Shown here: positions 14,353-15,369 of the stretch, one piece after another | Layout of the letters: the number at the start of each line of letters is the position of its first letter | Position numbering within the stretch: position 1 is the first letter of the stretch | Assembly: GCA_913043205.1 (NCBI GenBank) | Contig: CAJWLF010000014.1 | Coordinates: 226 to 64,225, forward strand | Length of the DNA: 64,000 nucleotides | Direction: 5' to 3' | Source of the DNA: an uncultured Chloroflexota bacterium | GTDB lineage: Bacteria > Chloroflexota > UBA11872 > VXNJ01 | Made by a program: the position numbers and the translations under genes | Notes under the pieces: generated by a model | Told to the model about the DNA's origin: nothing | Seen by the model: only the letters and a program-made list of their open reading frames with translations | Databases searched by the model: none

Positions 14353-15369
14353 GTGAGTAATGATTTGCCACAGGTTCACAACCCGCTGCCTGGCGACATT
14401 GACTTTGGAGCAGGGAGGCTACTGGGAGGCCCAGCACCGTACTTAAATGTTGCGGGAGGGTACAAGGTATCCACCCCTGCAACTGGTTTTGTTTCGCTTC
14501 CTTATGTGGAGGAAAAACGGACTTCAGATGAGGGGCACCGAATCATTCCTACGGATCCCGACAACGTGCAGGTTGTCAGTGATCTGGCAAAACTAGGGAC
14601 TGCCACAAAGGACAGAGAGTTCATCGAATTCGCTGGCCGATGGGGGTTGATGGGATTCGTCAATATGTGGGAGATGTGGAAGCAATATTCGAGCACTATC
14701 GATGTAATTCCTCCATGGGTGACTGAAGCCTACGGCACCGAACCCCCTGCGCTTGGTCGTCAGCCTCAATATCTCCCTGAGGGCGGTTTTGATCCGCTGA
14801 ACTGGCTCAGCGGACACGGACGGAGTGTAGATCTGATACTACGCCTAGAATTTTGGCAAAGAGCTTCGAACTTGTGGGGGTTGGAGCGTGAATTGTTTCG
14901 GCACGAACTATACGGGCTGGCGAATGATAGTTCTCGGATGCTCAGCAACTTCCAAAGTCGAGAGCATGCGCTAGAGGGTTTAAGTGCAGCAACCAATCCC
15001 ACATACCGTCTTGCACTTGGCTTGTTTCCATATGCACCAAAATCACTAGCTGGTCACCCAGAGCACTTAGCCGAACAAATTATCGAGGAAGTCATAAGAA
15101 CGAATTTGCATTTTGTGAAATTTAAGGCGCATGGGGTAACCCTAACAAACCCGCTGGAAGCGGTGTACCTGCACCTGCGATCGATTATTAACCGTGAAGA
15201 GGGAATAACCATTGGGCTATGTCCCGAGTGTGACCATGTATTCGTAACCCGAAAGAAGCAGCAACGCTTTTGCGCACCCATCAAATTAAACGCCAAACGA
15301 TCTCGGTGCCAGAACACGCACAGTAACAGGCAGTCTCGCCTCAGGATGAAAGGTGGTTCTAGTGGCTAA
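14353..15369 (+). CDS. CGNR-like zinc-finger protein, translationally coupled to the integrase
   Basis: The C-terminus CPECDHVFVTRKKQQRFC-x10-CQNTHSNRQSR has a CGNR-type Zn-finger pattern. The 3' end overlaps the integrase start (15353..15369). It is homologous to 3773..4852. Confidence 0.55.
   Translation: MSNDLPQVHNPLPGDIDFGAGRLLGGPAPYLNVAGGYKVSTPATGFVSLPYVEEKRTSDEGHRIIPTDPDNVQVVSDLAKLGTATKDREFIEFAGRWGLMGFVNMWEMWKQYSSTIDVIPPWVTEAYGTEPPALGRQPQYLPEGGFDPLNWLSGHGRSVDLILRLEFWQRASNLWGLERELFRHELYGLANDSSRMLSNFQSREHALEGLSAATNPTYRLALGLFPYAPKSLAGHPEHLAEQIIEEVIRTNLHFVKFKAHGVTLTNPLEAVYLHLRSIINREEGITIGLCPECDHVFVTRKKQQRFCAPIKLNAKRSRCQNTHSNRQSRLRMKGGSSG

What the first reader, a model, noticed from the sequence alone, without database searches (positions are those of the whole stretch)
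14353..15369. CGNR-like zinc-finger protein translationally coupled to the integrase, with a paralogue outside the island
The 338 aa protein ends in C-x2-C-HVFV-x-R(K/R)Q-x-(K/R)FC-x10-C-x-N-T-x-x-N-(R/K)-x-x-R, which resembles the CGNR zinc finger found in ABATE-domain stress regulators. Its stop overlaps the integrase start. A homologue (3773..4852) with the same C-terminal finger and a conserved WG.LGF / GH.R.VD.IL core lies about 1.2 kb beyond the left repeat, separated from it by panB, in a region that is also A+T-rich. This may mark an older decayed insertion or a regulator family that is recruited by integrases.
Basis: partly seen in the sequence, partly recalled or inferred. Interest (0 to 1): 0.6.

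Follow-up and report, generated by a model that had tools for sequence, protein, structure and literature searches.

The report
Zinc-finger partner gene of island integrases
The gene encodes a divergent member of an uncharacterised zinc-finger protein family (DUF6076-like) that sits just upstream of the integrase in small mobile islands of several bacterial phyla, in the slot where related phage-parasitic islands keep their master repressor. It is not a recognisable ABATE/CGNR stress regulator.

Summary
ORF 14353-15369 (338 aa) ends in a four-cysteine finger and overlaps the integrase start. It has a true paralogue at 3773-4852 (BLASTP E 8e-25).

The CGNR label is only weakly supported. zf-CGNR scores 10.8 bits against a cutoff of 24, no ABATE match was listed in the E<=10 Pfam scan, and the resemblance to the solved ABATE-CGNR protein 3h0n is not significant.

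A profile search found about 155 relatives. The four cysteines and one serine are invariant in 135 of them. Their C-terminal 105 residues are homologous to Pfam DUF6076 (hhalign probability 99%, E 7.7e-18).

The host island (6046-17635, inserted at tRNA-Sec) carries defence genes and is laid out like a Gram-positive PICI. The finger gene and int run one way. An XRE gene, an HTH_17 (Xis-like) gene and a primase run the other way.

The gene pairing recurs:
- The finger gene touches a tyrosine integrase in 9 of 15 readable contexts, from marine bacteria, Acidobacteriota and Bacillota.
- It faces a divergent HTH/primase/capsid operon in 12 of 15.

My best reading, inferred from position only (about 0.4), is an Stl/Rpr-like master repressor with a zinc-finger DNA-binding domain.

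The paralogue is a syntenic chromosomal gene under purifying selection. I found no remnant of an older insertion around it.

The parts
14353..15369 (+). Target gene: 338-aa DUF6076-like zinc-finger protein. It is the first gene of the finger-int operon.
   Evidence: ORF and translation. An identical protein, P0001, lies on a Tara/JGI contig. The family comprises about 155 representatives.
15052..15363 (+). C-terminal module (residues 234-337): helix, beta-hairpin, helix, then the four-Cys finger and a basic helix. This is the part homologous to DUF6076.
   Evidence: hhalign of the marine group against the DUF6076 group: probability 99%, E 7.7e-18 over 105 columns. AF2 pLDDT is above 90 here.
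15220..15309 (+). Zinc-finger core, from Cys290 to Cys319 (C-x2-C-x13-C-x11-C).
   Evidence: C290, C293, C307, S317 and C319 are invariant in 135 sequences. The codons were read directly from the sequence.
15362..16483 (+). Tyrosine integrase. It starts at GTG 15362 (or 15353) and overlaps the stop of the finger gene.
   Evidence: Pfam Phage_integrase 6.6e-25 plus SAM_3 and Phage_int_M; PHROG 1 integrase; the JGI gene call and the junction comparison.
14265..14352 (.). 88-bp divergent control region. It holds back-to-back promoter-like sites with overlapping -10 boxes, two ATGC-N3-GCAT palindromes (14300, 14325), and the palindrome GCAACAGCTGTTGC, which straddles its left edge (14261-14274).
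   Evidence: Two of the four window-wide ATGCNNNGCAT sites fall here. No binding has been shown.
14001..14264 (-). XRE-type HTH gene, the first gene of the divergent operon (Str/Cro position).
   Evidence: Pfam HTH_3 9.8e-08.
13781..14032 (-). HTH_17 (AlpA/Xis-like) gene.
   Evidence: Pfam HTH_17 1.5e-07.
11741..13784 (-). Replication module: a CHC2 primase zinc-finger protein (13491-13784) and a primase/DUF3631 protein (11741-13501).
   Evidence: Pfam and PHROG matches.
16492..17279 (-). SSB (16797-17279) and an unknown 102-aa gene, lying between int and attR.
   Evidence: Pfam SSB 1.1e-15.
6046..6187 (.). attL: a 142-nt direct repeat (partial tRNA-Sec 3' half plus 72 nt).
   Evidence: 99% identical to 17494-17635.
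17494..17662 (-). attR repeat (17494-17635) overlapping the intact tRNA-Sec gene (17566-17662).
   Evidence: ARAGORN and Rfam tRNA-Sec, 70.4 bits. The island is absent at this tRNA in the related genome L016.
6487..11571 (+). Cargo genes: PDC-S18 defence candidate, methyl-directed restriction enzyme (PvuRts1I/SRA), DZR zinc-ribbon protein, trypsin-like protease, PhyH dioxygenase.
   Evidence: Pfam; PADLOC PDC-S18 2e-96 and mREase_II 1.7e-90.
3773..4852 (+). Chromosomal paralogue (359 aa) with the same finger and core motifs, but no integrase or HTH partner.
   Evidence: BLASTP E 8e-25. Its ortholog P0003 (77% identical) is syntenic in L016. dN/dS is 0.19.

Best explanation
The 338-aa protein is a divergent member of the DUF6076-like superfamily. 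It has a fast-evolving helical N-terminal region with two conserved motifs (F-x4-G-L-L-G and D-P-x2-W-x2-H-A). Its conserved C-terminal module is helix, beta-hairpin, helix, a four-cysteine zinc finger and a basic helix.

It is a core gene of an 11.4-kb integrative element inserted at tRNA-Sec. The element is organised like a Gram-positive PICI or a tycheposon. The finger gene and int form one tightly packed, probably translationally coupled operon. That operon diverges from an XRE, HTH_17 (Xis-like), primase operon across an 88-bp promoter region.

Inferred mechanism: the protein is the element's Stl/Rpr-type master regulator. The finger and basic helix bind operators in the divergent region and keep the excision/replication operon silent, while the same transcript supplies integrase. 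The variable N-terminal domain receives the inducing signal, for example a helper-phage protein. The orphan chromosomal paralogues are domesticated or left-behind copies acting as ordinary regulators.

Shown: family membership, invariant metal ligands, recurrent synteny, operon geometry. Inferred: DNA binding, repression and sensing.
For: Family and finger:
- About 155 relatives at E<=1e-3 among 1.84 billion representatives.
- Four Cys and one Ser are invariant in 135 of them.
- 30 of the 135 hit DUF6076 and 15 hit zf-CGNR at E<0.01.
- The window-lineage profile retrieves P0016 at E 1.7e-7; NCBI names P0016 a DUF6076 domain-containing protein.
- It also retrieves P0117, which passes the DUF6076 gathering score.
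- hhalign of the marine group against the DUF6076 group gives probability 99%, E 7.7e-18.
- The AF2 model is confident in the C-terminal module.

Synteny:
- Finger gene followed by int in the window, L006, L011, L009, L015, L020, L021 and L023; int followed by finger gene in L005. That is 9 of 15 readable contexts.
- A divergent HTH/Xis/primase/capsid operon in 12 of 15, including elements without an adjacent integrase: L008, L012, L013, L014.
- Gaps between the finger gene and int range from -23 to +28 nt.
- The layout matches the published PICI organisation. The master repressor rpr/stl is divergent from xis-pri-rep, and int lies beyond rpr in the same direction (PMC6092414).

Other:
- The finger protein evolves faster than its integrase. 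For L011-L021, int is 57% identical and the finger protein 30%. Fast divergence is what I would expect of a specificity determinant (my own background knowledge, not tested here).
- The control region has overlapping divergent promoters and palindromes.
- GTAAC is the top-enriched 5-mer in the pooled upstream regions of 13 elements.
Against: - There is no experimental or direct computational evidence of DNA binding or repression.
- No HTH is present, unlike every characterised Stl/Rpr.
- The window element also encodes an XRE protein that could itself be the repressor.
- Some elements carry the gene with no integrase nearby, and three chromosomal contexts have no mobile-element genes at all.
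- The motif enrichment is marginal after multiple-test correction and was found in only 5 of 13 regions. The binding protein could equally be the HTH_17 or XRE product.
- The contexts are a convenience sample of the hits that had long contigs.
- The window island has no packaging genes, so dependence on a helper phage is unproven.
Confidence: 0.42

Rival explanations
1. It is an integrase accessory factor. In this reading the finger protein binds att arm sites, bends DNA or targets the integrase to tRNA-Sec. It is made in fixed ratio with integrase through translational coupling.
For: The gene is directly adjacent to a tyrosine integrase, and often overlaps it, in 9 of 15 contexts. The 8-nt overlap geometry is conserved between the window and L006. 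The finger gene, int and xis diversify as one module.
Against: - The gene persists without any adjacent integrase in L008, L012, L013 and L014, and in three chromosomal contexts.
- The divergent HTH/primase operon is the more constant partner (12 of 15).
- The HTH_17 gene already fills the Xis role.
- The intergenic palindrome motif does not recur at the att repeats.
Confidence: 0.2
2. It is an ABATE/CGNR-type stress-responsive transcription regulator: a true member of the zf-CGNR family with a ligand-sensing N-terminal domain.
For: - The pattern resembles the Jann_2411 finger: hydrophobic-Cys knuckle, CD(H/R)V(F/Y), an aromatic residue before Cys3, and C-Q-N at the start of a basic helix.
- Sub-threshold zf-CGNR alignments span the whole model.
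- 15 of 135 relatives hit zf-CGNR at E<0.01, the best at 1.7e-5.
- 3h0n is the top Foldseek hit of the full model.
Against: - 10.8 bits against a cutoff of 24, and no ABATE match listed in the E<=10 Pfam scans.
- Different Cys spacing.
- A profile search of the PDB misses 3h0n.
- hhalign gives probability 2.7%.
- The Foldseek hit is at E 0.38, and 3h0n is absent from the 50 listed hits when only the C-terminal module is searched.
- The genomic context is mobile-element control, not stress operons.
Confidence: 0.1
3. It is a positive regulator or a signal sensor. In this reading it activates int or the divergent operon, or acts as an anti-repressor of the XRE protein, rather than being the repressor itself.
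For: The window, L005 and L006 have an XRE gene that could be the actual repressor. In Gram-negative PICIs the key regulator, AlpA, proved to be an activator and not the expected repressor (PMC6092414).
Against: Many elements (L011, L014, L021, L023) have no XRE gene, only HTH_17, which leaves the finger protein as the only candidate maintenance regulator. The position matches rpr/stl exactly.
Confidence: 0.15
4. The paralogue at 3773-4852 marks an older, decayed insertion of the same kind of element beside the tRNA-Sec hotspot.
For: - It lies 1.2 kb from attL.
- Its ortholog pair is far more diverged than its flanks (dS 0.69 against about 0.12; 76% against 96-97% amino-acid identity). In L016 an extra ABC permease gene sits beside it. 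Both suggest a variable spot.
- GC is slightly low there, at 0.41.
Against: - There is no third att or partial tRNA copy.
- No integrase, HTH or primase remnants are present.
- The core gene panB lies between it and the tRNA.
- The gene is intact, syntenic in a related genome, and under purifying selection (dN/dS 0.19).
Confidence: 0.2

Closest known systems
Pfam DUF6076 (PF19553) proteins, e.g. WP_149217043.1 of Bacillus sp. JAS24-2 plasmid pl626 and WP_166510896.1 of Desulfallas thermosapovorans
   Same: They share a homologous C-terminal module: helix, hairpin, helix, then C-x2-C...F-C-P...S-x-C and a basic helix (hhalign probability 99%). The N-terminal F-x4-G motif is also shared. The gene neighbourhood is identical: excisionase/HTH_17 on one strand, the DUF6076 gene followed by a tyrosine integrase on the other.
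   Different: The window protein does not hit the Pfam model at all. Its N-terminal two-thirds do not align with the Bacillota group at profile level. It has a longer, partly disordered N-terminus. No function is published for DUF6076.
Stl/Rpr master repressors of SaPIs and Gram-positive PICIs
   Same: The genomic slot is the same: first gene on the int side of a divergent promoter pair, facing a small HTH gene, xis and pri/rep (PMC6092414). The family diverges fast, and the architecture is two-part, with a DNA-binding end and a variable end.
   Different: No HTH is present; the DNA-binding candidate is a C-terminal zinc finger. There is no sequence or fold similarity. Repression and induction by a phage protein are untested. 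The window island lacks packaging genes.
ABATE-CGNR regulators (Jann_2411, PDB 3h0n; Pfam PF07336 and PF11706)
   Same: Both have a C-terminal four-Cys finger with a beta-hairpin knuckle, an aromatic residue before Cys3, C-Q-N at the start of a basic helix, and a preceding helix-hairpin-helix unit.
   Different: All matches are below threshold. The ligand spacing differs (11 residues between Cys3 and Cys4, against 3). No ABATE match was listed in the E<=10 Pfam scans. The protein is about twice as long, and its context is mobile-element control.
Tycheposons (marine PICI-like cargo islands; bioRxiv 10.1101/2020.12.28.424599)
   Same: The window element is marine. It integrates at a tRNA and leaves a partial tRNA repeat. 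It has a tyrosine recombinase, an xis-like gene and a primase, with cargo at the opposite end, and is about 11 kb long.
   Different: Tycheposons were defined in Prochlorococcus by their own hallmark profiles, which I did not test. The finger gene is not mentioned in the text I read. The host here is unidentified and has about 45% GC.
CGNR-finger proteins noted in phi1207.3 (orf15, 384 aa) and Tn6164 (Orf6)
   Same: These are large proteins of unknown function with a C-terminal CGNR-type finger. They lie at the boundary between a restriction cargo and the replication/early module of a mobile element (PMC4260502 and PMC3485107).
   Different: I did not compare their sequences with this family. 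Their fingers hit zf-CGNR significantly (4.2e-5 in the paper), and they are not adjacent to the integrase.

Membership tests
zf-CGNR (PF11706) | Score at or above the Pfam gathering threshold (24 bits). | tested here: not met
   The target scores 10.8 bits (E 0.43) and the paralogue has no hit. Relatives reach at best E 1.7e-5, and those inspected are below the gathering score.
zf-CGNR (PF11706) | Treble-clef ligand pattern C-x4-C ... C-x3-C, with the CGNR motif at the helix start. | tested here: not met
   The target has C-x2-C-x13-C-x11-C with C-Q-N-T. Jann_2411 has C-x4-C-x15-C-x3-C with C-Q-N-R. The overall Cys1-Cys4 span is similar: 29-32 residues against 26.
zf-CGNR (PF11706) | Detectable homology or fold match to the solved CGNR finger (3h0n). 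| tested here: inconclusive
ABATE (PF07336) | An N-terminal ABATE domain is detectable. | tested here: not met
   PF07336 is not listed for the target or paralogue at E<=10, for ten relatives at E<=1, or among the families matched by the 135 relatives at E<=0.01. The model shows only one helix-hairpin-helix unit before the finger.
DUF6076 (PF19553) | Score at or above the Pfam gathering threshold (23.5 bits). | tested here: not met
   No DUF6076 hit for the target at E<=10. 30 of 135 relatives hit at E<0.01, and P0117 passes with 25.5 bits.
DUF6076 superfamily | Profile-level homology to bona fide DUF6076 proteins. | tested here: met
   hhalign of A3 against A7: probability 99%, E 7.7e-18, residues 234-337. 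The window-lineage profile retrieves P0016, named DUF6076 by NCBI, at 1.7e-7 and P0117 at 2.4e-4.
DUF6076 superfamily | Shared gene neighbourhood (Xis/HTH_17 divergent; integrase downstream). | tested here: met
   L020 and L023 (DUF6076 proteins proper) and the window, L006, L011 and L021 show the same arrangement.
Stl/Rpr master repressor of PICIs | Gene position: int side of a divergent regulatory pair, facing xis-pri-rep. | tested here: met
   compared with the description in PMC6092414.
Stl/Rpr master repressor of PICIs | HTH DNA-binding domain (feature taken from my own knowledge of characterised Stl proteins, not from a source read here). | tested here: not met
   No HTH family was detected in the target or among the 135 relatives beyond a single stray hit.
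Stl/Rpr master repressor of PICIs | Represses the island operon and is relieved by a helper-phage protein. | not testable with these tools
   Needs reporter, EMSA and induction experiments.
PICI-like / tycheposon-like integrative element (the host island) | Site-specific integrase, att repeats at a tRNA, xis and primase module, size 10-20 kb. | tested here: met
   142-nt repeats at tRNA-Sec; 11.4 kb; int, HTH_17 and primase. The site is empty in related genome L016.
PICI-like / tycheposon-like integrative element (the host island) | Packaging or interference genes (terS, capsid) and helper-phage dependence. | tested here: not met
   No capsid or terS gene is in the window island. Capsid genes are present in the related elements L013, L014 and L023.

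The most novel reading that the evidence does not exclude
DUF6076-like zinc-finger proteins are a previously unrecognised class of master repressors, functional analogues of Stl/Rpr that lack an HTH. They would control a widespread superfamily of small tRNA-integrating, PICI/tycheposon-like elements in marine bacteria, Acidobacteriota and Bacillota. A conserved finger would read a GTAAC-type half-site, and a hypervariable N-terminal domain would sense helper phages. Copies of the gene have been repeatedly domesticated as chromosomal regulators.
Probability: 0.3. Interest if true: 0.65.

Novelty: new variant of a known kind. Interest (0 to 1): 0.5.

Why it matters
It gives an uncharacterised Pfam family (DUF6076 and its distant relatives) a concrete, testable role. 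It also supplies a marker gene for finding small integrative, satellite-like elements that viral and plasmid catalogues miss: I found no hits in IMG/VR or the phage records.

If the repressor reading is right, the PICI control logic extends beyond HTH repressors and beyond Gram-positive cocci to marine and soil lineages. The fast-evolving N-terminal domain would then be the place to look for phage-sensing specificity.

The window element also carries defence cargo, so its regulator would control when that cargo moves between cells.

Tried and rejected
- Word-indexed homology searches returned only the query proteins and two near-identical sequences. The same search with the 135-sequence profile returned two proteins.
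- PDB sequence searches with the three profiles A1, A2 and A6 found nothing meaningful.
- NCBIfam and PADLOC have no model for the protein. PHROGs gave only E of about 0.01 to unknown families.
- Folding the C-terminal module alone did not bring 3h0n into the 50 hits listed. I therefore dropped the structural argument for CGNR/ABATE.
- Collection scans found no relatives in IMG/VR, in GenBank phages, or in GTDB genomes with the marine profile. Alignments A2, A3 and A7 were too diverse to scan with.
- A search for a third, degenerate att copy that would bound an older insertion found none.
- The 320-aa protein near the P0004 paralogue is unrelated to the island's 320-aa PDC-S18 gene.
- I could not name the host organism. 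The cluster look-up gave no taxon. SAR202-like gene content is only an impression.
- I considered ImmA-like protease and RDF roles and rejected both. There is no HEXXH motif, and an HTH_17 gene already sits in the Xis position.
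Full report
**1. The observation**

ORF 14353-15369 (+, GTG start, 338 aa) exists as described. Its tail is LCPECDHVFVTRKKQQRFCAPIKLNAKRSRCQNTHSNRQSRLR, with cysteines at residues 290, 293, 307 and 319.

The stop codon at 15367-15369 lies inside the integrase ORF. The integrase frame has GTG codons at 15353 and 15362 and its first ATG at 15392. JGI's gene call on an identical metagenomic contig uses 15362.

In the related element L006 the integrase ATG overlaps the stop of the finger gene by the same 8 nt (ATGGCGCGTAG against GTGGCTAA). 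The basic peptide encoded upstream of the window's first ATG is conserved there: VAKKNYRTRGMG against MARRAKKRGLG. The overlap is therefore real and probably functional.

The paralogue at 3773-4852 aligns over 314 residues (26% identity, E 8e-25), including the WG.LGF and GH.R.VD.IL motifs. It ends 1,194 nt before the left repeat, with panB between them. The 'A+T-rich' remark is marginal, at GC 0.41-0.45.

**2. The setting**

Direct repeats of 142 nt (6046-6187 and 17494-17635, 99% identical) bound an 11.4-kb island. The right repeat covers the 3' 70 nt of an intact tRNA-Sec gene.

A related genome (L016) has the same flanking genes and the tRNA-Sec gene but lacks this island. The island is therefore a genuine insertion.

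Gene content:

| Coordinates | Strand | Gene |
|---|---|---|
| 6487-11571 | + | Cargo: PDC-S18 defence candidate (E 2e-96), methyl-directed restriction enzyme (E 1.7e-90), DZR zinc-ribbon protein, trypsin-like protease, PhyH |
| 11741-14264 | - | Operon: XRE HTH, HTH_17 (AlpA/Xis-like), CHC2 primase finger, primase/DUF3631 |
| 14353-16483 | + | The finger gene, then a tyrosine integrase |
| 16492-17279 | - | Unknown gene and SSB |

The 88-bp region between the two operons holds back-to-back promoter-like sites with overlapping -10 boxes. It also holds two ATGC-N3-GCAT palindromes (two of only four in the window), and a GCAACAGCTGTTGC palindrome (14261-14274) straddles its left edge.

**3. What the protein is**

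On its own the protein has no significant Pfam hit. zf_Tbcl gives E 0.016, and zf-CGNR gives E 0.43 (10.8 bits against a cutoff of 24). No ABATE match is listed.

Word-indexed searches found only identical or near-identical sequences. A full HMMER search with a profile of the two paralogues and one ortholog found 155 representatives at E<=1e-3. Most are 250-380 aa and match both the N-terminal core and the C-terminus.

In an alignment of 135 of these, C290, C293, C307, S317 and C319 are invariant. F93, G98, F297 and P308 are nearly so. The family consensus is:
- ...F-x4-G-L-L-G...
- ...D-P-x2-W-x2-H-A-x2-V...
- ...I-N-x-N-L...
- ...Y-W-x-L-A...
- ...R-x-C-x2-C-G-x2-F-x5-R-Q-x-F-C-P-P-x(4-15)-S-x-C-x2-R-x3-R-x-R.

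Among the members, 30 of 135 match DUF6076 (best 3e-8) and 15 match zf-CGNR (best 1.7e-5). The ten I inspected individually are below the gathering scores.

Two members are bona fide DUF6076 proteins:
- P0117 is WP_149217043.1 of Bacillus sp. JAS24-2. It is annotated 'DUF6076 domain-containing protein' and scores 25.5 bits against a cutoff of 23.5.
- P0016 is WP_166510896.1 of Desulfallas thermosapovorans, which NCBI also names DUF6076.

An independent profile-profile test compared the marine group (A3) with the Bacillota DUF6076 group (A7). It gives probability 99%, E 7.7e-18, over residues 234-337.

AlphaFold (pLDDT 76.9, pTM 0.78) predicts a helical N-terminal region. The C-terminal module is confident: helix 236-251, hairpin 256-263, helix 267-279, knuckle hairpin 286-299, and a basic helix from residue 318. 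Folding the module alone gives the same picture, with pLDDT 85.9.

**4. The CGNR question**

The solved CGNR finger of Jann_2411 reads ICNAHRCDRVYFDTSRNGTRQYCSLACQNRVKAAAFRER. Its ligands are Cys147 and Cys152 in a hairpin knuckle and Cys168 and Cys172 at the start of a helix (PMC2954205).

The window protein shares several features with it:
- a hydrophobic residue before Cys1;
- CD(H/R)V(F/Y);
- an aromatic residue before Cys3;
- C-Q-N at the start of a basic helix.

It differs in having a two-residue knuckle and 11 residues, not 3, between Cys3 and Cys4.

The tests were weak:
- hhalign of the finger profile against the Jann_2411 finger gives E 0.017, probability 2.7%.
- An HMM search of PDB sequences misses 3h0n.
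- Foldseek ranks 3h0n first for the full model, but at E 0.38 and TM 0.43 on the target.
- 3h0n is not among the 50 listed hits when the C-terminal module is searched alone.

I conclude that a distant relationship is possible. Membership of zf-CGNR/ABATE is not established, and DUF6076 is the correct nearest family.

**5. Recurrent neighbourhood**

I read 16 distinct contexts. They are a convenience sample of family members that lie on usable contigs.

The finger gene is followed directly by a tyrosine integrase in:
- the window;
- L006 (23-nt overlap), L011 (2-nt gap), L009 and L015;
- L020 (Bacillus plasmid pl626: excisionase divergent, then DUF6076, then site-specific integrase);
- L021 (HTH_17 and D5 primase divergent);
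- L023 (Desulfallas: HTH_17, DnaG finger, AAA_25 helicase and two capsid genes divergent).

In L005 the order is integrase then finger gene, with an 8-nt overlap. That makes 9 of the 15 contexts where the neighbouring side is readable.

A divergent operon beginning with a small HTH or Xis-like gene, and continuing with a primase or capsid genes, is present in 12 of 15. This count includes elements without an adjacent integrase:
- L008, plasmid-like, in Peribacillus;
- L012, L013 and L014, in Acidobacteriota.

Three contexts are plainly chromosomal, with no mobile-element genes:
- the window paralogue;
- its L016 ortholog;
- the P0004 type, with a CMD gene divergent and a GNAT gene downstream.

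The adjacent integrases form one clade (27-57% identity, apart from L005's), and the finger proteins diverge faster than they do. For L011-L021, int is 57% identical and the finger protein 30%.

I found no family member in IMG/VR or in GenBank phage records. The only PLSDB plasmid hit was pl626.

**6. Mechanism**

The published PICI layout is: a divergent regulatory pair that includes the master repressor Rpr/Stl; int to the left of rpr in the same direction; xis and pri-rep to the right (PMC6092414). The window island and its relatives reproduce this layout, with the finger gene in the rpr/stl slot.

I therefore propose that the protein is the maintenance regulator of the element:
- The finger and basic helix bind the divergent control region.
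- This keeps the XRE, Xis-like and primase operon off.
- The same transcript provides integrase.
- The variable N-terminal domain receives the inducing signal.

Points in favour:
- The divergent operon is a more constant partner than the integrase.
- Orphan chromosomal copies show that the protein can function without an integrase.
- The family diverges rapidly outside the finger.
- In a k-mer scan of 13 upstream regions, run after I had noticed the motif by eye, GTAAC/GTTAC was the most enriched 5-mer (11 observed against 2.2 expected, P 1.8e-5 before correction). CGTTAC was the top 6-mer. The motif occurs in 5 of the 13 regions.

Points against:
- There is no direct evidence of binding or repression.
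- There is no HTH.
- An XRE protein is present in some elements and could be the repressor.
- The motif signal is marginal and could belong to the HTH_17 or XRE protein.

I put the repressor reading at about 0.4. An integrase accessory role is about 0.2, an activator or sensor role about 0.15, and true ABATE/CGNR membership about 0.1.

**7. The paralogue**

Its ortholog P0003 (77% identical) sits in the same chromosomal context in L016: PdxA, an enolase-superfamily gene, a DehI-like gene, the finger gene, then panB.

The pair has dN/dS 0.19, so the gene is maintained. Its dS is 0.69, against about 0.12 for panB and the enolase gene. L016 also has an extra permease gene beside it.

There is no third att copy and no island-gene remnant. 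The site looks like a variable spot holding an old, functional copy. Nothing shows that it is a decayed element.

**8. Novelty**

The family exists in Pfam only as a DUF. No paper in the searchable library mentions DUF6076. My search combining PICI, zinc finger, repressor and integrase returned nothing relevant.

Two mobile-element papers list large proteins of unknown function with a C-terminal CGNR finger. The element type (PICI or tycheposon-like) is known.

What I did not find described in the library I searched is the consistent pairing of this finger family with the integrase and switch region across phyla. The suggestion that follows is that a non-HTH protein fills the master-regulator slot. 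I rate this a new variant of a known kind, of moderate interest.

Noticed in passing
window 6487-8346: The first two cargo genes of the island are anti-phage defence genes. One is a PDC-S18 candidate (E 2e-96). The other is a PvuRts1I/SRA-type methyl-directed restriction enzyme (mREase_II, E 1.7e-90).
   Followed up: partly
window 8438-10637 and L007 1-1908: A DZR zinc-ribbon protein followed by a trypsin-like protease is cargo in the window island and again in the unrelated contig L007, which has the same primase and finger-gene backbone. The window protease contains Pro/Thr-rich tandem repeats (9301-9412, 10093-10168). This may be a two-gene cassette of unknown function.
   Followed up: partly
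window 8343-8390, 9078-9100, 10645-10692: A 23-44-nt direct repeat (TTAGGGCGATGCGTGGAGATTGA..., partly followed by GGGTATACCCCCCAAAAAA) recurs just after three successive cargo genes. A second repeat lies at 6447-6471 and 8396-8420. Together they look like cassette junctions or shared terminators.
   Followed up: no
window 3773-4852 versus L016 4754-5875: The chromosomal paralogue is much more diverged from its ortholog than the flanking genes are (dS 0.69, 76% amino-acid identity, against dS about 0.12 and 96-97%). The neighbouring DehI-like gene is nearly identical (dS 0.005). This mosaic of divergence suggests recombination or allele replacement at this spot.
   Followed up: partly
P0004, P0009, P0011 (loci L002, L005, L006), C-termini: Some marine family members carry an extra C-terminal tail of about 35 residues that resembles the UBA-like N-terminal domain of EF-Ts (TGLxxxxCxxALxxxxxDFExAxxxL). 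One family member hit the NCBIfam tsf model at 6e-5.
   Followed up: no
L012 6714-9374; L013 1166-2332; L014 4061-5332; L023 660-2899: Related elements in Acidobacteriota and Desulfallas carry HK97-type capsid genes or an nSTAND3 NTPase (PADLOC PDC-S73). The same control module therefore serves both capsid-encoding satellite-like elements and pure cargo/defence islands.
   Followed up: partly
L016 8359-9876: In the related genome a 505-aa gene of unknown function lies between panB and tRNA-Sec, where the window has only about 200 bp before attL. This may be a different occupant of the same hotspot.
   Followed up: no
L021 5943-5990 and L011 1149-1184: Two elements with related integrases (57% identical) share TACCGTTAC/GTAACGGTA repeats in the control region upstream of the finger gene. 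This is a candidate conserved operator.
   Followed up: partly
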